A DNA stretch of 64,000 nt. Source: an uncultured Methanosarcinales archaeon. GTDB taxonomy: Archaea > Nanobdellota > Nanobdellia > Woesearchaeales > JAGLXL01. A model generated the notes under the pieces. That model searched no databases, was not told the DNA's origin, and was given only the letters and a program-made list of their open reading frames with translations. Below, in pieces: positions 19,772 to 55,342 of this stretch. Made by a program: the position numbers and the translations under genes. The stretch is taken from contig CAYLKE010000003.1 of the NCBI GenBank assembly GCA_964384425.1, positions 26,147 through 90,146 of the forward strand, read 5' to 3'. Each line of letters begins with the position of its first letter. The first letter of the stretch is position 1.

Positions 19772-19798
19772 TTTTTTTATTTTCTTTTATTTTTTAAA

Positions 19799-31343: not shown

Positions 31344-33086
31344 TTGATAAAATGTTTAGATTATGATATTGAAAGAGTTTTGAGTATTTTAGATTATAAA
31401 AATATAAGTTACACTCCATCAACTACAAATCTTATTAAAAAAGCCTATTTAATGAATTCAAAATTAACTGCAGAATATGTTAAGAAATATTTAAAAAAAG
31501 AAAATAAAGATAGCAAATATTTGTATCTTGCATTTAGGTTTATGGTAAAACACGATGCTGAAGTATTTGTAGATTTATACAAAAATATTACAAATAATAT
31601 TTTTGATAATCTATTTAATAATTCAAAAGACTATTCTGAAATAAGGCCCATAGTAAAAGCATTGAATTACTTAGTAAGAAAAAATATTAAATTATTTAAT
31701 GAATTGAGAGAAATGAGCAATACTTTTTTAGATTTTGAAATTGATGATAGCGACGATGAAAATTTATCTTTTAAAAAAATAATTAGTGTGTGTGAAAATT
31801 TTAAATATGCTTCTCAAAATTATGTTTTTAATTCTCCAACACAATTCTTAACTGATTATAATAATATAAATAATCAAATGAAAAAATTATTGTATATTAA
31901 TAAAATCAATGAAGAACAATTTAATACATTAAAGGAAGTGTATGTTCTCCCTGCATTAAGAAAATTAGCTAAAACCTTAGATTATGAAAAAATAAAACCC
32001 ATGGAAGAAATAGAATATAAATTTGTTAAAAAACTACTTAATGCGAATTTTATAAAGTGGGAAGGATGTGAAAGTGAAGAAGATATATTAAAAAAAATTA
32101 ATCCTTTATTTCATACAAGGAATAAATCTATACATTATAAAAAATATCATTCTATATTAGACGAGAAAAAGATTACGTCATTAAAAGAATTGCTTGAATG
32201 CGCTTCATATGATTTTGAAGGCATTTTCATAAAAAAATTAGGAGAAGGGTCTTTTGGTAATACTTATCTTGCCAAATTTATTGACAAAGGAGATAGGGCA
32301 GTTAAAATTATTAAAAAAAACAAAAACTTAGAAGAATCAATTATTTTGGATAAATTAAATCACAAGAACATTGTGAAGCTTTATCATTCGTCAGATAATG
32401 AGATTTCTAAATATGGAGAAGATTGTTCTTCTATATTTATGGAGTACATAGACGGAAAAGAACTAAGAGATATAATCGACAATAAAGAATTTAAAAAAGA
32501 AGATGCAAAGGAATGGACTTTAAACCTATTGGATGTTGTAAATTATCTTAATGAAAAAGAGATATACCACAGAGATATTAAACCAAGAAATATTAAAATA
32601 GATAGCAAGGGAATTTTAAAATTATTAGATTTTGGTGTTGCAACAACTAACATAGAAGAATATGAAGAAAAGTACAATAGAAAATATGGTGGAAGAAATA
32701 ATCTTTATTCTTTAAGTCTTATATCTTACGAATTATTTACAAGAGAATATCCTATTAAAAATGAAAAATTATTATCTACTAATTCCTTTAAAGATATGTT
32801 GAAAATATTAAAAGATGAGATGTTAGATAATGGAATCCTCAAAGATAAGTACAGATCTAAAATAAAAGAAAACATGCCTAAAGAGTTTCAAGAACCTATC
32901 ATTGCTGCTTTAGAATACAGACCACAAGAAGAATTAAATAAAGCTTTTTTTAATTTGAATGAAATAATCAAAATAAAAGAATTTGAAAGAAAAAGACCTA
33001 AAATAATCCAAACAATGAAAGATTGTGGATTTAATATTGATGGTATTACATATGATAAATATAAAAAAATAAAAAAATCATTTTAA
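31344..33086 (+). CDS. Ser/Thr protein kinase with N-terminal helical-repeat region
   Basis: GEGSFGNTY, AVKIIKK, HRDIKPRNIKID and LLDFGVA in the C-terminal 300 aa. The annotated start is TTG, and no ATG occurs in the open frame back to 31182. Confidence 0.75.
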   Translation: MIKCLDYDIERVLSILDYKNISYTPSTTNLIKKAYLMNSKLTAEYVKKYLKKENKDSKYLYLAFRFMVKHDAEVFVDLYKNITNNIFDNLFNNSKDYSEIRPIVKALNYLVRKNIKLFNELREMSNTFLDFEIDDSDDENLSFKKIISVCENFKYASQNYVFNSPTQFLTDYNNINNQMKKLLYINKINEEQFNTLKEVYVLPALRKLAKTLDYEKIKPMEEIEYKFVKKLLNANFIKWEGCESEEDILKKINPLFHTRNKSIHYKKYHSILDEKKITSLKELLECASYDFEGIFIKKLGEGSFGNTYLAKFIDKGDRAVKIIKKNKNLEESIILDKLNHKNIVKLYHSSDNEISKYGEDCSSIFMEYIDGKELRDIIDNKEFKKEDAKEWTLNLLDVVNYLNEKEIYHRDIKPRNIKIDSKGILKLLDFGVATTNIEEYEEKYNRKYGGRNNLYSLSLISYELFTREYPIKNEKLLSTNSFKDMLKILKDEMLDNGILKDKYRSKIKENMPKEFQEPIIAALEYRPQEELNKAFFNLNEIIKIKEFERKRPKIIQTMKDCGFNIDGITYDKYKKIKKSF

Positions 33087-34129: not shown

Positions 34130-34582
34130 ATGAAAACGAAAGACATGAAAATTATCGCACACCTAAGGCAAAACGCAAGAATGCCTTTAACAAAAATGAG
34201 TAGAAAAACCCATATTCCAGTATCAACACTATTTGACAATTTAAAAGCAAAAGAAAAATCAATCATAAGAAAACACACAAGTCTTCTAAACTTCAGTAAA
34301 TTAGGATATGATGCAAGAGCAAATATTGCATTAAAAGTAGACAGAGATGATAAAGAAAATCTATTAAAACAATTGAAGATGGCAAATGAAGTTAATTCTC
34401 TGTATAAAATAAACAATGGATTTGATTTTATGATAGAAGGGATATTCAAGAATGTTAGAGAAATGGAATCTTTTATAGAAAACTTAGAAAATAAATTCAA
34501 GATAACAGACAAGAAATTCTTTTTTATTATAGAAGATCTAAAGAGAGAGGAATTTATGGGGAATCCTAATCTAATTAATTAA
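34130..34582 (+). CDS. Lrp/AsnC-family transcriptional regulator (copy A)
   Basis: HTH_AsnC N-terminus (KIIAHLRQNARMPLTKMSRKTHIPVSTLFDNL) plus a RAM-like C-terminus. Near-identical to 36992..37441. Confidence 0.8.
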   Translation: MKTKDMKIIAHLRQNARMPLTKMSRKTHIPVSTLFDNLKAKEKSIIRKHTSLLNFSKLGYDARANIALKVDRDDKENLLKQLKMANEVNSLYKINNGFDFMIEGIFKNVREMESFIENLENKFKITDKKFFFIIEDLKREEFMGNPNLIN

Positions 34583-34601: not shown

Positions 34602-35210
34602 TTAATATTTACTTAACACATACTCTTCAATTAATTGCCTAAATTCTATTGCTTTATCAACTGCTTTCTTTGCTTCATGCATTTCAGCCAATCTTGTCAT
34701 TCTATAAGTAAAGAAGTTTCTATTGTCTTTTTGTTTTTTCAAATCTCTTGCACATTTTTTAACTCTCTGTAATTCCAAAGTTTCGTCTTGTAAATCTTGA
34801 AACATTGCCAATGCTTTTGACATCCTACTAGTTGTTATTTTGTTGTTATTTTTTTGTTCAAGTTCAGAACCTTTAATAATATAATAAAACAAAAATGCCA
34901 AATAGGTTTTTTTATGAGTATCTTTCACATTATCTGGAAGTTTTTTATTATCTAAACTCAAAAGATATTCTACTTCAAAAAACATAGAATAATAACTTTG
35001 AGTAATTATCCAAATAAAAACACTTTCGTTATCATTCAATTCATTTGTTTTTTCTATCTTATCCAAAAGATAAATTGATAAGTTCAATGAATCTTTTGCT
35101 TTTCTTTTACAATGTTCTATAAATTCTTCAGAAGGTATTTTCCAAATATTTTTATTATCCCATTTAATAAAAACTTTTTTTGCTTCTTCAATATCCCTTT
35201 TCTCTAACAT
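34602..35210 (-). CDS. HEPN-domain protein (pair 1)
   Basis: All-helical, with QSYYSMFF and NRNFFTY motifs. Overlaps the stop of the upstream MNT gene. Confidence 0.55.
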   Translation of the reverse strand: MLEKRDIEEAKKVFIKWDNKNIWKIPSEEFIEHCKRKAKDSLNLSIYLLDKIEKTNELNDNESVFIWIITQSYYSMFFEVEYLLSLDNKKLPDNVKDTHKKTYLAFLFYYIIKGSELEQKNNNKITTSRMSKALAMFQDLQDETLELQRVKKCARDLKKQKDNRNFFTYRMTRLAEMHEAKKAVDKAIEFRQLIEEYVLSKY

Positions 35211-35826
35211 ACTGTTTCACCATTGCATAATATTGTTCTGTTCCAAAAACAACAATTCCATGTTGAAAGGCACTTCTTCCGACACTATTTCTTTTTTCAA
35301 GCATCTTCATAAAATCTTCAACACAAACAATATTTATGTCTTTTTTGAATGCAGTATGTAATCTAGATATTTTATTAAGTCTTTCCTTGTATTTCTCGGT
35401 ATCTTTCCGATAAGGAATAATAAAAAGTAAATCCAAATCTGAATTTTTAGTATGTTTTTGTTTTGCATAAGAACCAAAAATAACTAAACTATAAAACATA
35501 TCATATAAATCTTCTTTTATTTCTTTTAAAAAAAGAACAATTTTTGGTTTTTTCTTCAAAAAATTATTTCCCTCATATAATATAGCAGAACTTAACCTAT
35601 CTATTGAAACATTGCAAAAATCAATAGATATCAAATTAGATCTTCCTTTTTTCTCTAATTTTATTATTTTTCTCTTAATCAATCCAGGAATTATTTTATG
35701 TACTGTTACATAAGACAAATTAGTTTCTTTTGATATTTGGTTTAAACTTTTACTTTCCAAAGGAGATCTAAGTAATTTTCCAATTATTTTATTTTTAGTA
35801 TCAGTATAATTTTTCATATTATTCAC
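35188..35826 (-). CDS. wHTH + minimal nucleotidyltransferase (MNT) protein (pair 1)
   Basis: IFGSYAKQKHTKNSDLDLLFI (GS...D.D NTase motif) with an N-terminal wHTH. Confidence 0.75.
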   Translation of the reverse strand: MNNMKNYTDTKNKIIGKLLRSPLESKSLNQISKETNLSYVTVHKIIPGLIKRKIIKLEKKGRSNLISIDFCNVSIDRLSSAILYEGNNFLKKKPKIVLFLKEIKEDLYDMFYSLVIFGSYAKQKHTKNSDLDLLFIIPYRKDTEKYKERLNKISRLHTAFKKDINIVCVEDFMKMLEKRNSVGRSAFQHGIVVFGTEQYYAMVKQYVREKGY

Positions 35827-35932: not shown

Positions 35933-36874
35933 CTAATGAAGAATTTTCTCAACTTCTATTCTATATTCCATAATGGTTGCATCACCAATATGTTTATGAA
36001 TCTCTTTTCTTATTTTTTTATATTGTTCGTCTTTTTCTGTTTGAAATGCATAATATAAATTAACATATCCTACTGCTTTAATGATTATTACAAAATGAGG
36101 ATTTCCTCTGGCCCATTTAATAAATTTCTCAATCTTTTCTTCTTCAGCAGGATTAATTCTGCAAATAAAGGTATACTCTCTAATTCCAATTTTAGGAAAT
36201 TCAACTAAAGGGTAAAATCTTTGAATAATGCCTTCTTTTTGTAATTTTTTCATTCTTCTCTTAATAGTATCATGATGAACATTAATTTTTTTAGACATAT
36301 CTAATATATGCATTCTAGAATTTTCTTTTAATAAATGAATAATTCTTTTATCAGTTTCATCAATAATTATATTTTTAGTTTTATCTTTTATATCGCATTT
36401 AGCAATTTTATCTTTATTTAGTAATCTTGTGAGATAAGTATAACTCCTGACACTTTGAAAACTAATATAATTAGTTACATGATCCTTTAAAATTTTAAGA
36501 ACCTTTGTTTGTATTTTATCATATTCTTCAATTGTTTTAGTCCAGACACTCACATATAATTTCCATTGACTGATTTCATGTAAAACATAACAGCAACTAA
36601 TCTTTTTAATTTTTAAAATTTCATTTATTTTTTTATTTATTTCATCATCATAAGTATTTTTAAGATCAAAATATATTGAATGTCTATTCATACTTAAAAG
36701 TTGATAATTAATCATAGTAGTAAATTTAGTTATAATGCCTTCATTAATCATCTTATTGATTCTATTAGAAATAGTTTTTTCAGGTATTTTTGTTATTTTT
36801 GACAATTGTTTATTTGATAACCTTGAATTTTGAAATAATTCAAATAATATTATTTTATCTTTTTTATCGAGCAT
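35933..36874 (-). CDS. Tandem (double) Lrp/AsnC-type regulator
   Basis: Two HTH_AsnC modules (KIILFELFQNSRLSNKQLSKITKIPEKTISNRI and RIIHLLKENSRMHILDMSKKINVHHDTIKRRM). Start set at MLDKKDK. Confidence 0.7.
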   Translation of the reverse strand: MLDKKDKIILFELFQNSRLSNKQLSKITKIPEKTISNRINKMINEGIITKFTTMINYQLLSMNRHSIYFDLKNTYDDEINKKINEILKIKKISCCYVLHEISQWKLYVSVWTKTIEEYDKIQTKVLKILKDHVTNYISFQSVRSYTYLTRLLNKDKIAKCDIKDKTKNIIIDETDKRIIHLLKENSRMHILDMSKKINVHHDTIKRRMKKLQKEGIIQRFYPLVEFPKIGIREYTFICRINPAEEEKIEKFIKWARGNPHFVIIIKAVGYVNLYYAFQTEKDEQYKKIRKEIHKHIGDATIMEYRIEVEKILH

Positions 36875-36991
36875 AAAATAATTAAAAAGCATATTTTATA
36901 AATATTTGCTTAATTTCAGCCATTTTTCTTAAAGAATATATAATAACATGAAAAATATTTTCTTTGTAAACAAAAAAAAGGAGGATTTACA

Positions 36992-37441
36992 ATGAAACCG
37001 AAAGAATTGAAAATTATCGCACACCTAAGACAAAACGCAAGAATGCCTTTAACAAAGATGAGCAGAAAAACCCATATTCCAGTATCAACATTATTTGACA
37101 ATTTAAAAGCAAAGGAAAAATCAATTATAAGAAAACATACTAGTCTTTTAAACTTCAGCAAATTAGGATATGATGCAAGAGCAAATATTGCATTAAAAGT
37201 AGACAGAGACGATAAAGAAAATCTATTAAAACAATTGAAGATGGCAAATGAAGTTAATTCTCTGTATAAAATAAACAATGGATTTGATTTTATGATAGAA
37301 GGGATATTCAAGAATGTTAGAGAAATGGAATCTTTTATAGAAAACTTAGAAAATAAATTCAAGATAACAGACAAGAAGTTTTTCTTTATCATAGAAGATC
37401 TGAAAAGAGAGGAATTCATGAGTAATGAGAACTTGGTTTAG
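36992..37441 (+). CDS. Lrp/AsnC-family regulator (copy B) with replaced C-terminus
   Basis: Near-identical to copy A up to ...REEF. It ends MSNENLV where copy A ends MGNPNLIN, because an inserted cassette starts at ~37417. Confidence 0.8.
   Translation: MKPKELKIIAHLRQNARMPLTKMSRKTHIPVSTLFDNLKAKEKSIIRKHTSLLNFSKLGYDARANIALKVDRDDKENLLKQLKMANEVNSLYKINNGFDFMIEGIFKNVREMESFIENLENKFKITDKKFFFIIEDLKREEFMSNENLV
37336..37420. repeat. 85-bp direct repeat, left copy (right copy 43873..43957)
   Basis: Base-by-base comparison shows the copies are identical except one C/T at 37417/43954. Confidence 0.9.
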
Positions 37442-37541
37442 GCATATAATGTCGGAAAGTTTACGAAATCTGAAACATATAATTAATATAGACTTTTCAT
37501 TATATTGTATTTTTATATATGTATTAAGACAATTCAGAAAA

Positions 37542-38408
37542 ATGAATAAAATTAAAGCAAATAAAATAAATCTAGCAATTATTTCTCCTTTTAATTATTT
37601 GGAACACTCTCTAAAAGGAGATATACACATGGCTTTAACTCATTTAGTTCTAAATGAAGATAATTTAGAATATGTTCAGTTTTATCGTCAATCGAATAAA
37701 TATAAAATATTAGATAATTCGGCATTTGAGCTAGAAGAATTAGGGGTTGGGTTAAAATCAAACCTAGTTTTAAAAGCAGCTGATATTATTTCAGCAGATG
37801 AAATAATTGCAACAGATGTACTTTACAAAGCAGAGGAAACAATTGAATCAACAATAAATTTCATAAATGATGTAAAAAATAAAAATAAACATTCAGATTA
37901 TAAAATTCAGGCTGTTGCTCAAGGATCATCAAAAAAAGAGATTTTATATTGTTTTCATGAATTAATGAAAATGAATAGTGTTAATGTGATTGGATTAAGC
38001 AAATTAGGAATTCCTGCTTCATATAAAGATCACATAATGGAAGGCGATGTCATGAGATCAAGAATTAGTTTCATTAACACAATAATTAATTCTAAAAAAT
38101 ACAAATTAATAAATTCACAACTTCAATTTAAAGATTATTCTCCAAAAAGCTTACATTTATTGGGGAGCGATAACAGGGGCTTTCAAGAATTATGGTACTA
38201 TAGGAATATTCCATTCATAAGATCCATGGATACTTCAATGCCTATTTGGTATGCATTAAATGGAAAATACATAAGTGAAAGTGAAAATTTTATTCCTGAA
38301 TTATTTAAAGAGAAAGTTGATTTTAAATATACAGAAGAAAATAAAAAATTGTCCTCAAAAAGAATTAAGAATAATTTAGAAAAACTAATGAAAAATTCAT
38401 GGAGGTAA
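37542..38408 (+). CDS. TGT-superfamily TIM-barrel protein, DpdA-like (putative base-exchange transglycosylase)
   Basis: Ordered motif matches to tRNA-guanine transglycosylase: LDNSAFE (cf. DSGGFQ), QAVAQGSS (cf. GIVQGG), NVIGLSKLG (cf. AIGGL), LHLLGSDN (cf. YLMGVG), SMDTSMP (cf. FDCVLP). No Zn site or PUA domain. Start set at the ATG at 37542. Confidence 0.5.
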   Translation: MNKIKANKINLAIISPFNYLEHSLKGDIHMALTHLVLNEDNLEYVQFYRQSNKYKILDNSAFELEELGVGLKSNLVLKAADIISADEIIATDVLYKAEETIESTINFINDVKNKNKHSDYKIQAVAQGSSKKEILYCFHELMKMNSVNVIGLSKLGIPASYKDHIMEGDVMRSRISFINTIINSKKYKLINSQLQFKDYSPKSLHLLGSDNRGFQELWYYRNIPFIRSMDTSMPIWYALNGKYISESENFIPELFKEKVDFKYTEENKKLSSKRIKNNLEKLMKNSWR

Positions 38409-38782
38409 AAATGAAAATCAAAAGATGGGTAACTATAAAAACATCATTTAATGGAATTCATAATTGGGAAAGATGCCCTATCAAAAGTGTAAATTTTCTT
38501 AAATATCCACATAGACATAAATTTTTAGTTAATTTAAGCATTCAAGTAAATGATGCTGATAGAGAAATTGAATTTTTTGTATTTCAAAAACAAATCAATG
38601 AAATAATAAAATCTTTATTTGAGAAACAAGAAAATGGTTGTTTGAATTTGGGATCAAGAAGTTGTGAACATGTATCTGATTTAATTTATAATAAAATAAG
38701 TGAAATTTATGGTAATGCAAATTGCCGAATAACTATTAGTGAGGATGGTGAAAATGAAGCAACCTGTGAATATGTCAATTGA
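38399..38782 (+). CDS. QueD/6-pyruvoyl-tetrahydropterin-synthase-like (T-fold) protein
   Basis: FNGIHNW..C...YPHRHKF.V.L (His triad plus Cys pattern), SCEH, and a C-terminal ...ATCEY comparable to the QueD C-terminus. Overlaps the upstream gene. Confidence 0.55.
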   Translation: MEVKMKIKRWVTIKTSFNGIHNWERCPIKSVNFLKYPHRHKFLVNLSIQVNDADREIEFFVFQKQINEIIKSLFEKQENGCLNLGSRSCEHVSDLIYNKISEIYGNANCRITISEDGENEATCEYVN

Positions 38783-39776
38783 AGAAAAATACATGAAGAT
38801 AGCTATTGAATTATCTAAAAAAGGTAATTTAATTCATAGTCCTTATGTTGGATGCGTTGTTGTTAAATCAGATAAAATTATTGGAAAGGGATTTTACGAA
38901 TATGAAGGAGCTCAACATGCTGAAGTAATGGCTTTTAAGAATATACCTTCGAATGATGCAAATAAATCTACAGTGTATGTAACTGTAGAACCATGTTCAG
39001 TTTATTCACGTACTCCTCCATGCACCAGACTTCTAATAGAAAAAGGTATTGAAAAAGTAGTTATGGGTATGTTAGATCCAAATCCATTGACTAAGGGAAG
39101 AAGTATTAAAAAATTTAAAGAAAATAACATTGACTTCCAAATTGGGATTTACGAACAGGAAATAATTAAATTAAATCAAAATTATATAAATACTGTATTA
39201 AACAACATAGATAATAAGGAGTGTTTTAAATATCGTGGTGTTCTTTCATTATGTGGGTTACCCGGATCAGGAAAAAGTCAAATAAGTAGAATCGTAAAAT
39301 CAATGTATGATATTGATGTTTTAGATGTTAGCTCAAAGTTACGAAGTATATCTATTGAACGATATGGCAATTCAAACAGAAACAATCTCATAAAAACTAG
39401 AGAAAAGATTATTAATTCTATGGGCAAAACAGGAGTTTTGGAATTAGCTTTATCAGAACATAAACTCAATTCTGATATTCTTTTAATCGATAGTGTTAGA
39501 ATTCTAAAAGACATAGAATTATTGTATAATAAATTTTCATCTTATTCTAAGACTATTGGGGTAATTGCTTCAAAGTATCAAAGATATCAAAGAATAAAAG
39601 AAAGAAGTAACAATAACATTTCCCATGAAGAGTTTATATCAAGAGATAAATGGGAGAAGAAAATAGGTGTCACAGAATGTATTGCTTCTTCAGATTATGT
39701 AATAAATAATTTGACTGATTTAAGCAACTTAAAAAAACAAATCCATGATTTGTTAGACCATTTTTATTTATTATAA
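38772..39776 (+). CDS. RibD-type cytidine/deoxycytidylate-deaminase-fold domain fused to a P-loop nucleotide kinase
   Basis: HAEVMAF...TVYVTVEPCSVYSRTPPC...MLDPNP (RibD deaminase signature), then GLPGSGKS (Walker A) and an R-rich lid (QRYQRIKER). The start is ambiguous (38739 GTG, or 38754 or 38772 ATG). Confidence 0.7.
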   Translation: MSIEEKYMKIAIELSKKGNLIHSPYVGCVVVKSDKIIGKGFYEYEGAQHAEVMAFKNIPSNDANKSTVYVTVEPCSVYSRTPPCTRLLIEKGIEKVVMGMLDPNPLTKGRSIKKFKENNIDFQIGIYEQEIIKLNQNYINTVLNNIDNKECFKYRGVLSLCGLPGSGKSQISRIVKSMYDIDVLDVSSKLRSISIERYGNSNRNNLIKTREKIINSMGKTGVLELALSEHKLNSDILLIDSVRILKDIELLYNKFSSYSKTIGVIASKYQRYQRIKERSNNNISHEEFISRDKWEKKIGVTECIASSDYVINNLTDLSNLKKQIHDLLDHFYLL

Positions 39777-40558
39777 TTAGAACAGGAAGAATTAATTTTG
39801 CAAGAAGAACATAATTTTTTACTACAACCATATGAACCTGTAATCCACATAGCCCTATCTAAATCAAGAATATTAATATCATTATCTTTGCAGTAATCAG
39901 TATAGAATTTCTGTAGCTGAGATGCATAAAAATATTTGTCTTCTCGTGAATTTGTTTCTAAAGCAATTTTTGTCCACAAACTAATATTTACATCATGAGA
40001 ATCAATAGGCATCATCAATCCATCTAAACTTTTTGGACTTATAAGTTTTTGTTCTATCATGAAAAAGACGAGTAAATTTGATATTTTTGGACCAAACCCA
40101 TAAAAGTCAGATAAATTATTTAAGATATTCTTCACATCACCCTTAAAGACATTTTTTACATTCGATTGGTAATTATTAACTAATAATTGTGAATTATTTA
40201 ACCATCTTTTAATAGCTTGATTAGGAAATCTAGGTTTTAAATATTTTCTTAGATCTGATGATAATGTTTCTTCTTCATATTTAATAATTTGTTCTGCATC
40301 AAATAATTTGGGATTTTCATTATACATAGCAATCCCTCTTTCAATCAAAGAACTCATTTTAGTCCCATAATTAATGGAATTCATATAAAATAAAAATTTA
40401 AAGTGTTCTTCACTACCTGTTTTTATTGATGAAGGAATATTTTGATCAGGAGTGATAATATTCTCAGTAAATATGCCTGTTTTGTTATAAAATGAACTCA
40501 TTAATTCATTAATGACTTTTTTACTACGAGACAAATTAAATTTTAATTTATATTTCAT
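39764..40558 (-). CDS. HhH-GPD superfamily DNA glycosylase with C-terminal 4-Cys (Fe-S loop-like) motif
   Basis: HhH FYGFGPKISNLL, catalytic-Asp region MPIDSHD, and C-terminal GCSKKLCSSCKINSSC (C-x5-C-x2-C-x5-C, close to the EndoIII/MutY cluster spacing). Confidence 0.65.
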   Translation of the reverse strand: MKYKLKFNLSRSKKVINELMSSFYNKTGIFTENIITPDQNIPSSIKTGSEEHFKFLFYMNSINYGTKMSSLIERGIAMYNENPKLFDAEQIIKYEEETLSSDLRKYLKPRFPNQAIKRWLNNSQLLVNNYQSNVKNVFKGDVKNILNNLSDFYGFGPKISNLLVFFMIEQKLISPKSLDGLMMPIDSHDVNISLWTKIALETNSREDKYFYASQLQKFYTDYCKDNDINILDLDRAMWITGSYGCSKKLCSSCKINSSCSNYNK

Positions 40559-41465
40559 ATTTTTTTAGTATGTGGTCTATTTTCTTTATTGCGTAAGATG
40601 TTGTTTTTATAAATCTATCAGTTTTAATAAGGTTGTTAATTTTTTCATGATTCAAATTAAAATCATACCCTACTTGACTAATAGATTCACTAGCAATAAA
40701 AGTAGCAAATTTTAATGAACTGATTAAATTATTAGTTAAATTATAATTATATATAAAACTAGTTGCAAAGAAGTCTCCCGCACCAGTAGAGTCAATTTCT
40801 TTATTTGGATACGAACTAGTATGGTAAATTTTATTATTTTTAAATAATAAAGAACCTTCTTTATCTAATGTAACAAATAACATCAAATCTTTGTTACTTT
40901 TTGTTAATTGATTTATAGTACTTATTGTATTTTGATTTTCTAATTCTTTAATTTCACTCTTGTTAACAAATAAATAATTAACATTTTTAGAGATAGATAA
41001 TAATCTTTTAAGATTCCGAGCATAATCTCCTTGTGGGGAGAATGCCAAAGGAATATTTTCTCTCTTTGCTTTATTGGAAACATTTTTATGAAGTGAGTAA
41101 TTTGAAGTACATAAATAAATGAATTCAGAGTTCCAGAATTCATAAGGTAATCTCTCTAATTTCATTAATTTTTGTGATTCTCCAGATATCAATACTTTCC
41201 TTTCGTCTTCACAACGATAATCCAAAGTTATTCTTTTTGTTTTGACATTTTCTTTATTAATCTTCAAATTAATATTTTTCTTTTTAAGAAAATCAATAAA
41301 TTTAGGAGAGAAATCGTTGCCTATTGTAGTATATAATGAAACATCTGATTTAAATTGTGTAAAACTCAGAGATGCATAAATTGCAGAACTTCCCATTAAA
41401 GTAATTTCTTTATCATTATAAATTAAATTATCTATAGAGATTGAACCAAGTACAGAATATTTCAT
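40548..41465 (-). CDS. PfkB-family (ribokinase-like) sugar/nucleoside kinase
   Basis: C-terminal signature DSTGAGDFFATSFIY. Length and N-terminal beta-strand pattern are typical of the family. Confidence 0.75.
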   Translation of the reverse strand: MKYSVLGSISIDNLIYNDKEITLMGSSAIYASLSFTQFKSDVSLYTTIGNDFSPKFIDFLKKKNINLKINKENVKTKRITLDYRCEDERKVLISGESQKLMKLERLPYEFWNSEFIYLCTSNYSLHKNVSNKAKRENIPLAFSPQGDYARNLKRLLSISKNVNYLFVNKSEIKELENQNTISTINQLTKSNKDLMLFVTLDKEGSLLFKNNKIYHTSSYPNKEIDSTGAGDFFATSFIYNYNLTNNLISSLKFATFIASESISQVGYDFNLNHEKINNLIKTDRFIKTTSYAIKKIDHILKKYEI

Positions 41466-42442
41466 TTTTCTAGATCTATTATGTCTCCAATATTTGGACC
41501 TTTTGTTAAAAGAGCCACCTTAACATTCGTTTGTTCTTCTATAAAGTTAATGGTTTTTTGAACATTTCTATCTATTTCATTGTTCATTGAAATATAATCT
41601 GTGAAAGTTAATGCTATTTTAGTTGCACCATTTACTATAGAAGCATTTTTAATCAAATCAACATCCAGACCCCCAACTCTCCGTAATCTTTTAGTTATCG
41701 ATGAATATTCTTTTATATTACTATTTGTTTCTTCTTGATACAATCTTCCTGGTCCAACTCTGCTTTCTCTACATCTTACAACTAAATAAACCTCTTTAAC
41801 TCTTTGAGGAGATAAGCCTAGACTAGACAGAGCCTCTGAAGTTGTTGTATCTCTACTAGTAACGTAAGGATAATCTCCATGATATAAAGATAATCCAAAT
41901 CCTTGACTCCCTTCGACAATCAAAGAATCTCCATTATTTAATCTTGAATTTATCTCTTTTACTGTATCTATTTGATATTCACTTAATATTTTAATATCTT
42001 TCATCAATTTAGCTTTTCTTAAAATTCTATCAGAATATGCTTCTCCAACACCTGATAAAGTTGATCCAACTTCTTTTTCAAGAAATTTATTTTGTTTTTC
42101 TCTAAGAATATATTCTTCTTCAATAACTGCACTAAATTTATCGACTTTGACTCTATTTGGGTTTAATTTAAACATATTGATTTCAGTAAGTAATGTCTGG
42201 GGGTGAATTAACATTCCTCTAGATAAATACAATGTTGTGTTATTGTTTGTAACTCCTGCAGGAATATGTCTTAATACTATTTTTTCATTGTTGTAATGAA
42301 TAGTATGTCCTGAATTATATGATCCTACTCTTGCCGCCATATTAAAATTATCTCTATTACATAAATAAGATGAAATTCGCCCTTTTCCTTCATTACCATA
42401 TTGAGATCCAATAACTAGAGTAACTTCATTTTTATAATCCAT
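41462..42442 (-). CDS. Short adenylosuccinate-synthetase-family enzyme (PurA/PurZ-like) with Asp->Asn in the P-loop
   Basis: GSQYGNEGKGR (cf. PurA GTQWGDEGKGK), NSGHT (cf. NAGHT), VEGSQG, YPYVTS, SRVGPG, KRLRRVGGLD. 326 aa, like short archaeal PurA. Confidence 0.7.
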   Translation of the reverse strand: MDYKNEVTLVIGSQYGNEGKGRISSYLCNRDNFNMAARVGSYNSGHTIHYNNEKIVLRHIPAGVTNNNTTLYLSRGMLIHPQTLLTEINMFKLNPNRVKVDKFSAVIEEEYILREKQNKFLEKEVGSTLSGVGEAYSDRILRKAKLMKDIKILSEYQIDTVKEINSRLNNGDSLIVEGSQGFGLSLYHGDYPYVTSRDTTTSEALSSLGLSPQRVKEVYLVVRCRESRVGPGRLYQEETNSNIKEYSSITKRLRRVGGLDVDLIKNASIVNGATKIALTFTDYISMNNEIDRNVQKTINFIEEQTNVKVALLTKGPNIGDIIDLEK

Positions 42443-42791
42443 TTTGAATCATCCCCTTATCAGTATCAAAACTTAACATATTAATATCATCAATTGGTAT
42501 CCACATTAATTCTTCTGCTTCATTTGTTTTAATTTCTCCATCCCATTGAGATATCAAGTAATAATTTATGTTCAGGACATTTCTTGTTTTAGTTCCTAAG
42601 AATTTAATCTCTTTTGCTTTAATATTTAATTCTTCTTTAATTTCTCTTGTGACTGCATTTTCATGCGATTCATTAGCCTCAACTTTTCCACCAGGAATCA
42701 TGATTGTATCTGGATCTAATAATTTATTTTTCTTTCTTTTTTCAACAAGAATCATATTTTCTTTTTTTAATATAAAAGATACAATTTCCAT
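42432..42791 (-). CDS. Nudix hydrolase (MutT-like)
   Basis: Nudix box GKVEANESHENAVTREIKEELNI fits G-x5-E-x7-REUxEE. Confidence 0.8.
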   Translation of the reverse strand: MEIVSFILKKENMILVEKRKKNKLLDPDTIMIPGGKVEANESHENAVTREIKEELNIKAKEIKFLGTKTRNVLNINYYLISQWDGEIKTNEAEELMWIPIDDINMLSFDTDKGMIQNGL

Positions 42792-42954: not shown

Positions 42955-43344
42955 ATGCCTGAATTAGAAAAGCAGTGGAATATTATTCATTCAGAATCAA
43001 TAATAGAAATATTGAACGTTATTGCTACTAACAAAAATATGAATTTAGAAAAATTCTTTTCTTTGGCATGGCTACATGATATTGGAAAAATTAAATCAGA
43101 AAAAAACCATGCAGAAATAAGTTTAGAAATGTTAAAAGAAGAATTTGAATTGGATGAAATTGATAAAGATTGTATTTTAAATCATGGATCCTCATCAGAA
43201 CCAAAGACCAAAGAAGGAGAAATATTTCGTTATGCTGATGGATTATCTTTATTTACTAATGAATCGATTAAGTTTAGATTCTATGCAGAGGCTAAAGAAG
43301 GATTAGATTTTGAACAAATCAAAGAAAAACTCAAAAAGATATAA
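42955..43344 (+). CDS. Small HD-domain phosphohydrolase
   Basis: LAWLHDIGK (HD dyad) with downstream H (NHAE, LNHG) and D (YADG) residues. 129 aa. Confidence 0.6.
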   Translation: MPELEKQWNIIHSESIIEILNVIATNKNMNLEKFFSLAWLHDIGKIKSEKNHAEISLEMLKEEFELDEIDKDCILNHGSSSEPKTKEGEIFRYADGLSLFTNESIKFRFYAEAKEGLDFEQIKEKLKKI

Positions 43345-43421: not shown

Positions 43422-43871
43422 ATGAAAAACTTAACTAAATTCCTAAAATATGCAAAAAAGAAAGCATATGCTTCGAAATTAACTTTTCCTAAGAAGACAA
43501 TTTTTAATGGTAAACGACATATAATTAAAAAAGATGATTTGATTTATATTGATACTTATTATGGAGATAAAACATTTTCAGGTAAGGAAGTTATATTAAT
43601 TAAAAAATCTCCTGTTTGGTCTATGGTTTATTATGGAGGTATTAAAGATAATGACTTAAATAAAAAAGATATTTACAAATTCTTAAAATATTGTTTAAGA
43701 GATATTCCAGATACATTTCCAATAAGAGGGAAAAACAATATTGTTAAAAATAGATTCAAATATGTAAATAAATGGAAAGGGGATTTAAAATCATTTGAAG
43801 GAAACGAAAGGATTTATTTTAAAGAAAAATTAGTGTATTCTTTGAGATATATTGGTGGAAAAATCAATTAA
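43422..43871 (+). CDS. Hypothetical protein (DUF5680-like by recollection)
   Basis: The pattern Y.D.Y.G...F.G.E.V......P.W.M.Y.GG is recalled from DUF5680-type proteins. The assignment is unverified. Confidence 0.3.
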   Translation: MKNLTKFLKYAKKKAYASKLTFPKKTIFNGKRHIIKKDDLIYIDTYYGDKTFSGKEVILIKKSPVWSMVYYGGIKDNDLNKKDIYKFLKYCLRDIPDTFPIRGKNNIVKNRFKYVNKWKGDLKSFEGNERIYFKEKLVYSLRYIGGKIN

Positions 43872-43872
43872 A

Positions 43873-43981
43873 TATAGAAAACTTAGAAAATAAATTCAAG
43901 ATAACAGACAAGAAGTTTTTCTTTATCATAGAAGATCTGAAAAGAGAGGAATTTATGGGGAATCCTAATCTAATTAATTAA
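43873..43981 (+). pseudogene. Orphan 3' fragment of the Lrp/AsnC gene
   Basis: Its 5' part is identical to copy B (37336..37416). Its 3' part and downstream 17 nt are identical to copy A (34553..34599). It encodes ...EEFMGNPNLIN*. Confidence 0.85.
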
Positions 43982-44002
43982 TTTTTTATTTTGTTTTTGT
44001 TT

Positions 44003-44107
44003 ATTATGATTTATAAATTCCTCGCTAGTACTTGTCCAGTGTGTCCAGTGGAATCATTCCGAATAATTGTTAGAAGTGTTTTTAAAAAATATTTCTTAAG
44101 AAAAGTT
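44003..44107. repeat. Junction repeat A, copy 1
   Basis: attatgatttataaattcctcgctagtacttgtccagtgtgtccagtggaa + hairpin ggaat-c-attcc + ..ttgttagaagtgtttttaaaaaatatttcttaagaaaagtt, ending at a start codon (44108). Confidence 0.85.
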
Positions 44108-44761
44108 ATGGAAAACCGAAAACTATTTAAATGTTTAAATAATATAAACAATTGTTTAAAAATGTTAAACATAATAAATAAAGGTTATAAAAAGATATTG
44201 AAGTTATTTTATGATAATAGAAAGAGTTTTCATCTTAGGGAAATTGCTAAAAAAACTTCTCTTAATGAAAATAGTGCATATCGTTTTCTTAATGTTTTAG
44301 AAAAAGAAAACATATTAAAATCAAATAAAAAAGCTAATCTTAAGCTTTTTTCATTAAATAAAAACAATAAAGTTTATTCTTTGTTGTCTTGTTTTGATAT
44401 TGAAAGATATGAAAAACTTCCTTCTATAAAAAAACAAGCAATAGGATATTTTTTAGAAAAATTAGATAAAAAACCATTTATAGTGATACTATTTGGTTCA
44501 ACAGCAAAAGAAACTTATAGAAAAGATTCAGATATTGATTTGTTTTTAATAGTCAATGAAAAGATAAATACTAGAAAAGCAAAAAATTACACTGATTCAC
44601 AAACAGCACAAATAATAAATGATTTTCAAATAAGTTTTAATGATTTTAAAAAAGATCTTAAAATGAAATCAGAAAAAGTTCTGCAATCAGCTCTTGAAAC
44701 AGGATATCCCATATTAAATCATATTGAGTTTTATAGGTGTGTTGAAGATGAAGAAATATGA
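44108..44761 (+). CDS. wHTH + MNT nucleotidyltransferase (pair 2)
   Basis: LFGSTAKETYRKDSDIDLFLI. Start moved to the ATG at 44108, because the track's N-terminal extension translates repeat A. Confidence 0.75.
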   Translation: MENRKLFKCLNNINNCLKMLNIINKGYKKILKLFYDNRKSFHLREIAKKTSLNENSAYRFLNVLEKENILKSNKKANLKLFSLNKNNKVYSLLSCFDIERYEKLPSIKKQAIGYFLEKLDKKPFIVILFGSTAKETYRKDSDIDLFLIVNEKINTRKAKNYTDSQTAQIINDFQISFNDFKKDLKMKSEKVLQSALETGYPILNHIEFYRCVEDEEI

Positions 44762-45263
44762 TATTGATAGATATCTTGATAATAAAAATCTTGTTGAAAA
44801 AAAGATAAATGAATTTATTAAGGATAAGGTAATTGTTAAAGAAACTTCTCCATCTGAGATAAAAGGACATATGCTAAAAGCAAGTCATAATCTTGAATTT
44901 ATAAAAAAGATAAGTAAAACAGAATTTAAAGATTGGGCTGTTACTGGATGTTATTATGCTTCGTATCATGCAGCATTGGCTTTGATAATGACAAGAGGAT
45001 ATTCTTCTAAAAATCATCTTGCCACTTTTTTAATAATAGTAAAAGAATTCTATAAAAAAGGATTAGAAAAAGAAGATATTGAAGTTTTTTCAGACATGTT
45101 GGATTATGAAGATATATTATTTTATGTTGAGTTTAAAAACAAAAGAGAAGATGCAAGTTATTCAACTAATCTTTTATTTGATAAAAAAGATGTTGAAGAA
45201 TTAAGAATAAAAGCAGTATTGTTTGTTTCTAAGATAAGATCTATTATTAGGAATAATTCTTAA
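44748..45263 (+). CDS. HEPN-domain protein (pair 2)
   Basis: GCYYASYHAALAL...SKNH...REDASY. ATG at 44748 overlaps the MNT stop. Confidence 0.65.
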   Translation: MKKYDIDRYLDNKNLVEKKINEFIKDKVIVKETSPSEIKGHMLKASHNLEFIKKISKTEFKDWAVTGCYYASYHAALALIMTRGYSSKNHLATFLIIVKEFYKKGLEKEDIEVFSDMLDYEDILFYVEFKNKREDASYSTNLLFDKKDVEELRIKAVLFVSKIRSIIRNNS

Positions 45264-45649: not shown

Positions 45650-45684
45650 TTTTCCCCTCCTTTTTAATAATAATATTTTTAGAA

Positions 45685-45843
45685 ATTATGATTTATAAAT
45701 TCCTCGCTAGTACTTGTCCAGTGTGTCCAGTGGAAAGATACTAAAAACTCAAAAGTTTTGGTATCTTAAAAAATCTTTGATTTTTGTAAGATTTCCGATT
45801 AATTGTTAGAATCACTTTTAAAAGAATTTTCTTAAGAAAAGTT
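45685..45843. repeat. Junction repeat A, copy 2 (with 53-nt insertion 45738..45790 in the hairpin loop)
   Basis: First 50 nt are identical to copy 1. The insertion is flanked by aagat/aagat and contains a 12-bp stem (agatactaaaac/gttttggtatct, one U-G pair). The repeat runs into the radC start. Confidence 0.85.
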
Positions 45844-46515: not shown

Positions 46516-47019
46516 TTATTCATTTTGTATGATATCTTCTGTTTTTTGAATAAAATCTAAAACTTGTTTTTCATATAAATTTATTAATTTATTTGTAAAA
46601 TATTTATCTGTTTGATAACTTGCATGGTGTCTATCTGATTTAAGATTTGTGTATAATTCTGCATCTTCTTTGTTAATGGATAAGTTATTAATCAAGTCAG
46701 CTTCTTTTTTTGTTATACTATATTCTTTTATTAAAATAAGGATTGTTGCATAATGATTTTTAGAAGAATAATTTTTATTAGTTATTAATGCTAAAGCTGA
46801 ATGATAAAGTGCATAATATAAAATAACAATAAGCCAATCATTGAAATTGCTTTGATTTTTGTTTATTTTATAGAAATTTATATTGTGCTTTGCTTTTTTT
46901 AAATATGATTTAACTAATTCATTGTTTTCGTCAATTTTAAGAATGTGTTTTTTCTTTATGAAAAATTGCAATTCTTTTTCTAAATATTTTTTATTAATAA
47001 ATAATTCTTCAATATCCAT
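46516..47019 (-). CDS. HEPN-domain protein (pair 3)
   Basis: YYALYHSALAL...SKNH...DRHHASY. Confidence 0.65.
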   Translation of the reverse strand: MDIEELFINKKYLEKELQFFIKKKHILKIDENNELVKSYLKKAKHNINFYKINKNQSNFNDWLIVILYYALYHSALALITNKNYSSKNHYATILILIKEYSITKKEADLINNLSINKEDAELYTNLKSDRHHASYQTDKYFTNKLINLYEKQVLDFIQKTEDIIQNE

Positions 47020-55341: not shown

Positions 55342-55342
55342 T

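What the first reader, a model, noticed from the sequence alone, without database searches (positions are those of the whole stretch)
37542..38782. DpdA-like transglycosylase overlapped by a QueD-like gene, without the rest of the preQ0 pathway
Five ordered TGT motifs are recognisable (LDNSAFE, QAVAQGSS, VIGLSKLG, LHLLGSDN, SMDTSMP). There is no Zn-binding CxCxxC...H site and no PUA/C-terminal tRNA-binding domain, which is the pattern of DNA-acting DpdA rather than tRNA TGT/ArcTGT. The next gene overlaps it by 10 nt and has the QueD/PTPS His/Cys pattern (IH..., PHRH, SCEH). FolE, QueE and QueC are absent from the cassette. The enzyme therefore either uses a scavenged 7-deazaguanine base or exchanges a different base.
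Basis: partly seen in the sequence, partly recalled or inferred. Interest (0 to 1): 0.7.

Follow-up and report, generated by a model that had tools for sequence, protein, structure and literature searches.

The report
7-deazaguanine DNA-modification cassette in an archaeon
The two genes are an archaeal copy of a phage gene pair (DpdA3 and DpdL) thought to replace guanine in DNA with 7-deazaguanine, and they sit in a 6.5-kb inserted cassette that cannot make the base's precursor but does carry nucleotide kinases, a DNA glycosylase and a Nudix enzyme.

Summary
Gene A (37542-38408) has a TGT-type fold. It belongs to the DpdA3 subfamily, founded by Cellulophaga phage phiST CGPG_00065. It has one Cys, no Zn site and no PUA domain. 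Gene B is not QueD. It is DpdL, the QueD paralogue with LxxxHRHxF in place of CxxxHGH, proposed but never shown to decarboxylate CDG to 7-deazaguanine. Gene B probably starts at 38411 behind a GGAGG site, so the 10-nt overlap is probably a 2-nt gap.

No FolE, QueD, QueE or QueC is present in the 64 kb.

New here:
- The window is an archaeal chromosome.
- The pair heads a 6,456-bp cassette flanked by perfect 81-bp direct repeats in the 3' end of an Lrp gene.
- The cassette also encodes a deaminase/dNMP-kinase fusion, an HhH-GPD glycosylase, a PfkB kinase, an atypical PurA, a Nudix and an HD protein.
- In 101 related loci, DpdL and QueC never co-occur. A T4-gp1-like dNMP kinase accompanies DpdL (38 of 39 loci).
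- Actinobacterial operons combine FolE-QueD-QueE with PfkB, TMK-like kinase, HhH-GPD, DpdA3 and DpdL.

Best reading: a laterally acquired 7-deazaguanine DNA module that depends on outside CDG. The kinase linkage keeps a nucleotide-level route open. Verdict: new variant of a known kind.

The parts
37336..37416 (.). Left copy of a perfect 81-bp direct repeat. It lies in the 3' part of the Lrp/AsnC gene 36992-37441 and marks the left junction of the cassette.
   Evidence: Exact 81-nt match to 43873-43953. Three-way alignment with the paralogous Lrp gene.
37512..37519 (+). TATA-box-like TTTATATA, 23-30 nt upstream of ATG 37542. This implies a leaderless first gene.
   Evidence: Read from the sequence. 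Its promoter function is inferred.
37542..38408 (+). DpdA3-family transglycosylase (288 aa). TGT-like TIM barrel with invariant D58, D92, Q127 and D230. No Zn site and no PUA domain.
38411..38782 (+). DpdL-family T-fold protein (123 aa; 127 aa if the start is 38399). QueD paralogue with the LxxxHRHxF signature.
38754..39776 (+). Fusion of a CDA-fold (RibD/dCMP-deaminase-like) deaminase with a T4-gp1-like dNMP kinase. Third gene of the operon, overlapping dpdL (alternative GTG start at 38739).
   Evidence: Pfam, NCBIfam and PHROG hits. The HMM of the DNMK found next to DpdA3 in phages hits it at 1.7e-6. PADLOC dCTPase 4.7e-14. Start codon read.
39764..40558 (-). HhH-GPD (EndoIII-like) DNA glycosylase with the GFGPK hairpin, an invariant Asp186 (IDSHD) and a C-terminal Cys cluster.
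   Evidence: Family of 361 homologues. Profile against PDB: Endonuclease III 1.9e-8. hhalign to the HhH-GPD proteins of DpdA3 operons: 95% probability.
40548..41465 (-). PfkB-family (ribokinase/nucleoside kinase) sugar or nucleoside kinase.
   Evidence: PF00294 4.5e-21. Nucleoside kinase and ribokinase models, all below cut-off.
41462..42442 (-). Short archaeal-type adenylosuccinate synthetase homologue with Asn in place of the P-loop catalytic Asp (GNEGKG).
42432..42791 (-). MutT-like Nudix hydrolase. First gene of the minus-strand operon Nudix-PurA-PfkB-HhH, whose genes overlap by 4-11 nt.
   Evidence: Overlaps taken from the coordinates.
42955..43344 (+). Small HD-domain protein.
   Evidence: PF01966. 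HDIG-type hits. No similarity to DatZ.
43422..43871 (+). DUF5680 protein. Last gene of the cassette.
43873..43953 (.). Right copy of the 81-bp direct repeat. It is followed by the native 3' end of the Lrp gene (...FMGNPNLIN*).

Best explanation
The two genes are a DpdA3-family guanine transglycosylase and a DpdL-family T-fold enzyme. In phage phiST the same pair is credited with a genome in which guanine is replaced by 2'-deoxy-7-deazaguanosine. The proposed steps are these. DpdL removes the carboxyl group of 7-carboxy-7-deazaguanine (CDG) to give 7-deazaguanine (DG); this is inferred and has never been shown biochemically. DpdA3 then exchanges guanine for DG by the TGT double-displacement chemistry. 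D230 would be the nucleophile, D58 the acid/base and D92 plus Q127 would read the base; this is inferred from alignment and fold. In this window the pair opens a leaderless three-gene operon whose third gene fuses a deaminase to a dNMP kinase. That operon is part of a 6,456-bp cassette flanked by 81-bp direct repeats and inserted in an Lrp gene of an AT-rich archaeal chromosome. The cassette encodes no FolE, QueD or QueE. CDG, or DG itself, must therefore come from the cell's own archaeosine pathway encoded outside the window, or from scavenging. The expected result is 7-deazaguanine in the organism's DNA. The accompanying kinases, Nudix and HhH-GPD glycosylase would handle the nucleotide pool or police the modification.
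For: Fold and family:
- The AlphaFold model (pLDDT 93.6) best matches ArcTGT, TGT and DpdA 7ui4.
- BLASTP to phiST DpdA3 gives 2e-21 and to phiST DpdL 6e-14. The phiST genes are defined as DpdA3 and DpdL in PMC10516641.
- The window protein sits inside the DpdL-associated DpdA3 clade together with phiST (NJ tree).
- The DpdL signature LKYPHRHKF is present, along with invariant H21, H38, H40, E58, E115 and E118.
- The DpdL model has a T-fold (pLDDT 96) and matches PTPS/QueD at TM 0.7.

Context statistics in 101 loci:
- DpdL occurs in 60 loci, and in 54 of them within 300 nt of DpdA3.
- QueC occurs in 31 loci. DpdL and QueC never occur together. This fits DpdL taking CDG in place of QueC.

Integrity and acquisition:
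- All family-invariant residues are intact in both proteins.
- Operon signals are present: a TATA box, an SD site and overlapping genes.
- The 81-bp repeats indicate acquisition as one unit.
- The spacing D58-D92-D230 (34 and 138 residues) resembles bDpdA D95-D130-D256 (35 and 126 residues).
Against: - No biochemical activity has been shown for any DpdA3 or DpdL. The authors' own tests in E. coli failed.
- No CDG source lies in the 64 kb, and the rest of the genome could not be read.
- PF01702 and the PADLOC DpdA models do not hit.
- hhalign to E. coli Tgt has very low probability, and its register puts N59, not D58, opposite the TGT acid/base Asp.
- A purely DNA-level exchange does not explain why dNMP kinases, dUTPase-like, Nudix and PfkB genes track this pair.
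- dDG has never been reported in a cellular genome in the literature I could search.
Confidence: 0.55

Rival explanations
1. Same product, different level. DpdA3 works on free nucleotides, not on DNA. A pyrophosphatase (Nudix here; dUTPase-like, MazG or Ham1 elsewhere) turns dGTP into dGMP. DpdA3 swaps guanine for DG on the nucleotide. The dNMP kinase (fused to the deaminase here) starts re-phosphorylation to 7-deaza-dGTP, which the polymerase incorporates. PfkB would feed nucleosides into the same pool.
For: - A T4-gp1-like dNMP kinase lies within 300 nt of DpdA3 in 29 loci. It occurs in 38 DpdL-type loci and in 0 QueC-type loci. A dUTPase-like gene occurs in 45 DpdL-type loci against 2 QueC-type loci.
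- The HMM of that kinase hits the window's third gene.
- TMK-like kinases directly follow DpdA or DpdL in L005 and Saccharibacteria, and lie in the same operon in Longispora and Micromonospora. Ham1 or Nudix genes sit alongside in Saccharibacteria, Longispora and Micromonospora.
- DpdA3 phages replace 100% of G, and free ADG nucleoside was reported in cells infected with CP220 (as quoted in PMC10516641).
- The minimal 288-aa barrel lacks the DNA-binding insertions and the Zn subdomain of bDpdA.
Against: - Phage replication modules routinely carry dNMP kinase and dUTPase genes. Many of the loci are related phages, so the counts are not independent.
- The window's kinase, PfkB and Nudix are not detectably orthologous to those of L005 or Micromonospora by BLASTP.
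- No TGT-family enzyme is known to act on mononucleotides (my own knowledge).
- The published proposal is post-replicative exchange.
Confidence: 0.25
2. A 7-deazapurine nucleoside or nucleotide (small-molecule) pathway, as in toyocamycin or tubercidin biosynthesis, with no nucleic acid target. The base would be attached to a sugar phosphate and remodelled by PurA-like, deaminase, kinase and Nudix enzymes.
For: - Actinobacterial operons join FolE-QueD-QueE to PfkB, TMK, an FAD enzyme, Nudix, DpdA3 and DpdL.
- A PurA-like gene lies in this cassette, and a PurA/PurZ-like plus an IMPDH/GuaC-like gene lie in L110. These recall ToyG and ToyE (my own knowledge of the toyocamycin cluster).
- Tubercidin clusters use CDG plus a decarboxylase and a Nudix-family (PF00293) enzyme (bioRxiv 10.64898/2026.04.15.718813).
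Against: - Known pathways use a phosphoribosyltransferase, not a TGT-fold enzyme, and lack nucleic-acid insertion enzymes.
- The cassette and the related operons include an EndoIII-type DNA glycosylase.
- The same pair sits in phages whose DNA carries dDG.
- A symbiont-sized AT-rich archaeon is an unlikely antibiotic producer (inference).
Confidence: 0.07
3. tRNA, not DNA, is the target. The pair would be a minimal salvage route that puts a scavenged 7-deazaguanine into tRNA of an archaeon with a reduced archaeosine pathway.
For: Archaea normally place preQ0 in tRNA with ArcTGT. No ArcTGT and no preQ0 genes are seen in the window.
Against: - There is no PUA or C-terminal tRNA-binding domain and no Zn subdomain.
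- The closest relatives are phage genes next to replication genes.
- The gene arrived in a mobile cassette.
- A core tRNA function would not be expected there.
Confidence: 0.06
4. Reading as first written: a true QueD next to a DpdA. The enzyme would make CPH4 for a preQ0-type route.
For: T-fold with three His and conserved Glu residues. Weak full-length PTPS match at E 0.034.
Against: - The QueD catalytic Cys of CxxxHGH is an invariant Leu in this family.
- The protein groups with phiST DpdL (6e-14) and scores 138 bits on the DpdL HMM against 14 bits on the QueD HMM.
- Genuine QueD genes coexist with DpdL in the same loci.
Confidence: 0.03

Closest known systems
DpdA3 + DpdL of Cellulophaga phage phiST (CGPG_00065 and CGPG_00067; Cui et al., NAR 2023, PMC10516641)
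   Same: Both proteins are homologous (26% and 29% identity; E 2e-21 and 6e-14). They are adjacent, DpdL carries the same LxxxHRHxF signature, and the locus has no QueC. The window's DpdA3 falls in the same DpdL-linked clade.
   Different: - phiST and most of the 101 related loci carry FolE, QueD and QueE within a few kb. This cassette has none.
- The host here is an archaeal chromosome, not a phage.
- The gene order is A then L, with a deaminase/kinase fusion following.
- The partners here are HhH-GPD, PfkB, PurA-like, Nudix and HD.
Bacterial DpdA of the Dpd restriction-modification island (Salmonella Montevideo, PDB 7UI4; PMC10164549)
   Same: TGT-like TIM barrel, three active-site Asp residues with similar spacing, and a predicted DNA guanine exchange.
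   Different: - bDpdA is 413 aa and has four insertions plus a conserved CXCX2CX22H Zn site. It needs DpdB and inserts preQ0.
- The window protein is 288 aa with one Cys and no DpdB. It does not hit the PADLOC library, which holds the known defence-system models.
QueD / PTPS (PF01242; E. coli QueD, PDB 4NTK)
   Same: T-fold, a three-His metal site, and a conserved Glu that in T-fold enzymes anchors the 2-amino-4-oxo ring. TM-score about 0.7.
   Different: The catalytic Cys is replaced by Leu, and an invariant Cys appears elsewhere (S88-C89-E90). The Pfam score is below threshold. True QueD genes occur alongside DpdL in other loci.
Actinobacterial and L005 operons found here (Micromonospora sp. 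Llam7 L108, Longispora L007, metagenomic L005)
   Same: DpdA3 + DpdL together with a P-loop (d)NMP kinase, PfkB, an HhH-GPD glycosylase and a Nudix. L005 also lacks FolE, QueD and QueE. The window's DpdA3 is sister to L005 and next to Longispora in the tree.
   Different: - Those operons carry an FAD oxidoreductase that is absent here. The actinobacterial ones also include FolE, QueD and QueE.
- The window's kinase, PfkB and glycosylase match theirs only at family or superfamily level.
- I found no description of these operons in the papers I could search.

Membership tests
TGT superfamily (tRNA-guanine transglycosylase fold, PF01702) | TIM-barrel fold superposable on TGT/ArcTGT/DpdA | tested here: met
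   The top 50 Foldseek PDB hits are all TGT, ArcTGT or DpdA. E from 4e-7, TM-score 0.5-0.6. Model pLDDT is 93.6.
TGT superfamily (tRNA-guanine transglycosylase fold, PF01702) | Match to the Pfam PF01702 profile | tested here: not met
   No Pfam hit even at E<=10. The family profile finds nothing in PDB by sequence. HHpred of the phiST homologue reached 98.8% to PF01702 according to PMC10516641.
TGT superfamily (tRNA-guanine transglycosylase fold, PF01702) | Three active-site Asp residues (acid/base, base recognition, nucleophile) | tested here: inconclusive
   D58, D92 and D230 are invariant in 49 homologues and in both DpdL-type and QueC-type groups. hhalign aligns D92 with the FDEC Asp and D230 with the DMFDC nucleophile, but at probability below 1% and with N59 opposite the first Asp. 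No 3D superposition was possible.
tRNA TGT / ArcTGT | Structural Zn site CxCxxC...H and, in ArcTGT, C-terminal PUA-containing domains | tested here: not met
   One Cys in 288 aa, and 0 of 49 relatives have CxCxxC. E. coli Tgt has CDCYTC. The protein ends soon after the barrel.
Bacterial DpdA (Dpd system) | Conserved Zn site and insertions Ins1-3 and Ins8; partner DpdB; PADLOC Dpd models | tested here: not met
   The Zn site is conserved in the bDpdA family (PMC10164549) but absent here. No PADLOC hit. No DpdB-like gene in the cassette.
DpdA3 (phage subfamily, Cui et al. 2023) | Homology to phiST CGPG_00065 and placement with it rather than with other groups | tested here: met
   BLASTP 2e-21 over 263 aa. 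phrog_20335 4e-17. Same clade in the NJ tree of 101 loci.
DpdA3 (phage subfamily, Cui et al. 2023) | Encoded beside 7-deazaguanine synthesis genes (FolE, QueD, QueE) | tested here: not met
   None in the 64-kb window. They are present in most related loci.
DpdA3 (phage subfamily, Cui et al. 2023) | Genome DNA carries a 7-deazaguanine derivative | not testable with these tools
   Requires LC-MS/MS of the DNA.
DpdL (proposed CDG decarboxylase) | Homology to phiST CGPG_00067 and the signature LxxxHRHxF replacing QueD's CxxxHGH | tested here: met
   BLASTP 6e-14. The motif is LKYPHRHKF. L34, H38, R39, H40 and F42 are invariant in 48 homologues. The DpdL HMM scores 138 bits.
DpdL (proposed CDG decarboxylase) | Occurs with DpdA and without QueC | tested here: met
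   0 of 91 typed loci have both DpdL and QueC. DpdL lies within 300 nt of DpdA3 in 54 loci. No QueC in the window.
DpdL (proposed CDG decarboxylase) | CDG decarboxylase activity | not testable with these tools
   Not shown even for the phage proteins.
QueD / PTPS (PF01242) | Pfam gathering score and the catalytic Cys of CxxxHGH | tested here: not met
   14.6 bits against a cut-off of 22.4. Leu occupies the Cys position. The fold itself is shared.

The most novel reading that the evidence does not exclude
DpdA3 is not a post-replicative DNA enzyme. It is a nucleotide-level base exchanger. Together with DpdL, a dNMP kinase, a dGTP-directed pyrophosphatase and PfkB, it forms a portable pathway that builds 7-deaza-dGTP before replication. 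In this case a cellular archaeon, not a virus, has acquired the pathway on a 6.5-kb cassette, so part or all of its chromosomal guanine would be 7-deazaguanine. The linked HhH-GPD glycosylase would then discriminate modified from unmodified DNA.
Probability: 0.2. Interest if true: 0.85.

Novelty: new variant of a known kind. Interest (0 to 1): 0.6.

Why it matters
DpdA3 and DpdL have been described only in viruses, and neither has a demonstrated activity. This window adds three things.

First, it offers an intact copy in a cellular archaeal chromosome, delimited by its 81-bp repeats and cut off from CDG synthesis. That is a compact unit for expression and feeding experiments with CDG or DG.

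Second, the survey gives genomic support for DpdL replacing QueC: the two never co-occur in the typed loci.

Third, DpdA3/DpdL travel with dNMP kinases, NTP pyrophosphatases, PfkB and an EndoIII-type glycosylase. This holds in phages, in Actinobacteria and here. The published post-replicative model does not mention these partners. They make an open question directly testable: how do some genomes reach 100% replacement of G?

If the archaeon's own DNA carries 7-deazaguanine, it would be the first cellular genome reported with that base. Such a genome would resist many restriction enzymes and confuse nanopore base-calling.

Tried and rejected
- Pfam, NCBIfam and PADLOC on genes A and B gave no usable hits.
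- Sequence searches of PDB with gene A, alone or as a profile, found nothing.
- hhalign in global mode against E. coli Tgt failed. Local mode gave a sensible alignment that is statistically worthless.
- QueE candidates: the two radical-SAM genes at 18323-19597 and 19799-20668 are SPASM peptide maturases, not QueE.
- PurZ/MazZ/DatZ idea for PurA-Nudix-HD: the PurA-like protein is much closer to Pyrococcus PurA (1e-64) than to PurZ (1e-19 to 1e-28), and the HD protein shows no similarity to DatZ. Only the Asp-to-Asn change and some PurZ-like residues remain unexplained.
- Cellular CPR context for L021 and L025-27: these contigs are probably large phages (ClpB, CobT/CobS-like, Phage_L5_gp82, WGR), so I do not count them as cellular.
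- Orthology of the window's kinase, PfkB and Nudix with those of L005 and Micromonospora: not detectable by BLASTP. Only the glycosylase links at profile level.
- Specificity-determining residues between DpdL-type and QueC-type DpdA3: nothing convincing.
- No riboswitch such as preQ1 was found in the window.
- The organism's name could not be obtained. Cluster look-ups carry no names, and the genome is not among the GTDB representatives scanned.
Full report
**What is at the coordinates**

The plus strand carries an ORF that can start at 37425 or 37542 and ends at 38408. A second ORF runs from 38399 or 38411 to 38782. Homologues begin at the position of the 37542 start. A TTTATATA box lies 23-30 nt upstream of it. 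So 37542 is the likely start, on a leaderless transcript.

For the second gene, the bases read tcatGGAGGTAAaaATG. That is a GGAGG site, the TAA stop of gene A at 38406-38408, and an ATG at 38411. The two Lrp genes nearby also have GGAGG before their ATG. The 10-nt overlap therefore holds only for the first ATG, and a 2-nt gap is more likely. The third gene probably starts at 38754, behind GAGGA, and overlaps gene B. The three genes form one tightly coupled operon.

**Gene A is a DpdA3-type transglycosylase**

- Curated libraries do not recognise it. Pfam, including PF01702, NCBIfam and PADLOC give nothing.
- It does match phrog_20335 at 4e-17.
- It has 93 homologues of about 280 aa. All are unnamed and none has a Pfam domain.
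- Their alignment has invariant D58, N59, E63, D92, Q127, G151, K154, H205-L-L-G208 and D230.
- An AlphaFold model built on that alignment is confident (pLDDT 93.6). Its 50 best PDB matches are all ArcTGT, bacterial or eukaryotic TGT, or bacterial DpdA 7UI4.
- tblastn against phage genomes finds Cellulophaga phage phiST CGPG_00065 and Bacillus phages such as BSP7. In both the homologue sits beside FolE, QueD and QueE, and in BSP7 also QueC.
- CGPG_00065 is the founding DpdA3 of Cui et al. 2023, and phiST DNA has dG fully replaced by 2'-deoxy-7-deazaguanosine (PMC10516641).
- Direct BLASTP to CGPG_00065 gives 2e-21.

A low-confidence hhalign to E. coli Tgt lines up three residues: D92 with the base-recognising Asp, Q127 with the conserved Gln, and D230 with the nucleophile Asp of DMFDC. 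The spacing D58-D92-D230 resembles D95-D130-D256 of bacterial DpdA.

The protein has one Cys. None of the 49 aligned family members has CxCxxC. This is not a general DpdA trait, because bacterial DpdA keeps the Zn site. It is a trait of this small subfamily.

**Gene B is DpdL, not QueD**

- It matches phrog_17812 at 3.5e-19 and touches Pfam PTPS only faintly, at 14.6 bits against a cut-off of 22.4.
- BLASTP to phiST CGPG_00067 (DpdL) gives 6e-14.
- The paper defines DpdL by LxxxHRHxF in place of QueD's CxxxHGH. The window protein reads LKYPHRHKF.
- L34, H38, R39, H40 and F42 are invariant in the family, along with H21, R55, E58, S88, C89, E115 and E118.
- The family is large, with 1180 hits at E<=1e-3.
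- Its profile finds Pyrococcus PTPS at 1e-4.
- The model (pLDDT 96) matches PTPS and QueD at TM about 0.7.
- The proposed activity, CDG to 7-deazaguanine, has not been demonstrated.

**The surroundings**

The window is archaeal. It carries FttA/aCPSF1, Spt5, a proteasome subunit, Lrp/AsnC regulators, a short archaeal-type PurA, and a tRNA seen by Rfam but not by ARAGORN, which probably has an intron. GC is about 25%.

No FolE1, FolE2, QueD, QueE or QueC is present in the 64 kb. The two radical-SAM genes are SPASM maturases.

A perfect 81-bp direct repeat occurs at 37336-37416 and again at 43873-43953. The left copy is the 3' part of the Lrp gene 36992-37441. After the right copy the sequence continues as the native Lrp end, exactly as in the paralogue at 34130-34582. 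The 6,456 bp in between therefore look like a single insertion. No integrase is inside it.

The insertion holds two convergent operons and two further genes:
- On the plus strand: dpdA3, dpdL and a fusion of a RibD/dCMP-deaminase-like domain with a dNMP-kinase domain.
- On the minus strand, with genes overlapping by 4-11 nt: Nudix, a PurA-like gene, PfkB and a 264-aa protein.
- Then an HD protein and a DUF5680 protein.

The 264-aa protein is an EndoIII-type HhH-GPD glycosylase. It has 361 homologues. Its profile finds Endonuclease III at 1.9e-8. It carries the GFGPK hairpin, an invariant Asp186 and a Cys cluster.

The cassette lies among MNT/HEPN-type pairs, RadC and ORF6N, and a Schlafen-like helicase lies about 10 kb further on. 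This is a variable region.

**Comparison across 101 loci**

I collected loci from genomes, viral contigs and metagenomes.

| Gene | Loci | Within 300 nt of DpdA3 | With DpdL | With QueC |
|---|---|---|---|---|
| DpdL | 60 | 54 | - | 0 |
| QueC | 31 | 11 | 0 | - |
| T4-gp1-like dNMP kinase (PF21448) | 39 | 29 | 38 | 0 |
| dUTPase-like | 51 | 5 | 45 | 2 |

The HMM of the phage dNMP kinase hits the window's third gene at 1.7e-6.

An NJ tree separates DpdL-type from QueC-type DpdA3. It places the window protein next to L005, then Longispora, with phiST in the same clade.

The non-phage-like relatives are the most informative:
- L005 reads DpdA3-DpdL-TMK-FAD-PfkB-HhH-GPD, with no FolE or QueE.
- Longispora reads FolE-QueD-QueE-TMK-FAD-HhH-GPD-DpdA3-DpdL, with a Nudix opposite.
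- Micromonospora reads FolE-QueD-kinase-QueE-PfkB-TMK-FAD-HhH-GPD-DpdA3-DpdL, with a Nudix opposite.
- Saccharibacteria reads DpdA-TMK-QueC-Ham1-FolE-QueD-QueE.

The L005 and Micromonospora TMK, FAD and HhH-GPD proteins are clear orthologues of each other. The window's kinase, PfkB and Nudix share only the family. Its glycosylase links to theirs at profile level, with hhalign probability 95%.

**How it most likely works**

Shown:
- The folds.
- The family memberships.
- The operon structure.
- The repeat-flanked insertion.
- The absence of CDG genes in the window.
- The co-occurrence pattern.

Inferred:
- DpdL makes 7-deazaguanine from CDG.
- DpdA3 exchanges it for guanine by TGT chemistry.
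- The end product is 7-deazaguanine in DNA.
- CDG or DG comes from outside the cassette, either from the cell's archaeosine pathway or by uptake.

Confidence for this overall reading is 0.55.

The strongest rival differs in where the exchange happens. The tight linkage to dNMP kinases and NTP pyrophosphatases, the minimal barrel and the 100% replacement seen in DpdA3 phages all fit a route through dGMP and 7-deaza-dGTP (0.25). The published model is post-replicative, and the word kinase does not occur in that paper. Smaller rivals are a small-molecule 7-deazapurine pathway (0.07), a tRNA target (0.06) and a genuine QueD (0.03).

The role of the HhH-GPD glycosylase is open. A 2025 preprint shows that HhH glycosylases (Dag1, Dag2) attack 7-deazaguanine-modified phage DNA. 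So a glycosylase that tells modified from unmodified DNA is plausible, but its direction here is unknown.

**Comparison with what is known, and novelty**

It works like, and is a member of, the DpdA3/DpdL pair of phiST. It is not a member of bacterial DpdA, tRNA TGT/ArcTGT or QueD, because defining features were tested and not met. DpdA3 and DpdL were reported as viral subfamilies. I found no paper describing them in a cellular archaeal genome, nor the kinase/PfkB/HhH-GPD/Nudix set around them. That is only the library I could search.

I rate it a new variant of a known kind, with interest 0.6. The gene identities are now ordinary. What is not ordinary is the setting without a CDG source, the cassette structure and the conserved nucleotide-handling partners. 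These bear directly on an unresolved mechanism.

Noticed in passing
window 41462-42442 (-): The PurA-like protein has GSQYGNEGKG. Asn stands where PurA has the catalytic Asp (Pyrococcus GDEGKG) and where PurZ has Ser. At 35 alignment columns where two PurZ proteins agree and differ from Pyrococcus PurA, it carries the PurZ residue 11 times, the PurA residue 3 times and another residue 21 times (for example TKR against TGR). Overall it remains far closer to Pyrococcus PurA (1e-64) than to PurZ. It is below the NCBIfam cut-offs of both.
   Followed up: partly
L110 (metagenomic, phage-like) 3130-13101: A DpdA3 locus that also carries QueD, FolE2, a nucleoside deoxyribosyltransferase-like gene, an IMPDH/GuaC-family gene and a PurA/PurZ-like gene with the PurZ-type GSEGKG loop. 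This is a second case of a PurA-family gene near DpdA3.
   Followed up: partly
L108 (Micromonospora sp. Llam7) 3578-11747; L007 (Longispora) 4676-11688: Long actinobacterial operons join FolE, QueD and QueE to PfkB, one or two TMK-like kinases, an FAD oxidoreductase, HhH-GPD, DpdA3 and DpdL, with a Nudix on the opposite strand. In Micromonospora this lies next to Mu-type transposase genes. I found no description in the searched papers.
   Followed up: partly
window 38399-38782, residues S88-C89-E90: The DpdL family has lost QueD's catalytic Cys but has an invariant Cys in an S-C-E motif at the start of the second long helix. It could be a relocated catalytic residue.
   Followed up: no
window 34130-34582 and 36992-37441: Two Lrp/AsnC genes are 95% identical over their first 300 nt. 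Each is shadowed by a long antisense ORF that is probably not a gene. A 319-aa tandem double-Lrp gene lies between them at 35933-36892.
   Followed up: partly
window 34602-35826, 43991-45263, 46516-47581, 48854-49845, 49973-50984: Five gene pairs each contain a nucleotidyltransferase (MNT) and/or a HEPN protein. HEPN was detected in two, at 44724-45263 and 49973-50473. They surround the cassette together with RadC (45844-46500) and ORF6N (48025-48639). Repeated 60-nt segments occur at 43994-44114 and 45676-45850.
   Followed up: no
window 18323-21423: Two radical-SAM/SPASM maturases lie next to a creatininase/MftE-like peptidase. This is a RiPP- or mycofactocin-like trio in an archaeon.
   Followed up: no
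window 6192-6293 (-): A third tRNA of 102 nt lies between tRNA-Ser and tRNA-Asn. Rfam finds it but ARAGORN does not. It probably contains an intron, which fits an archaeal origin.
   Followed up: no
window 38754-39776 (+): The deaminase half scores best on RibD (pyrimidine 2-amino deaminase, 2.8e-38, below cut-off). The kinase half resembles the kinase-like domain of anti-phage dCTP deaminases (PADLOC dCTPase 4.7e-14), but in the reverse domain order. A deaminase acting on a 2-amino-4-oxo ring could in principle act on guanine-like bases.
   Followed up: no
window 25755-28826, 31344-33086, 53461-55449: Two large Ser/Thr protein kinases and a Schlafen-group-3-like helicase (E 1e-104) lie in the same variable region.
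   Followed up: no
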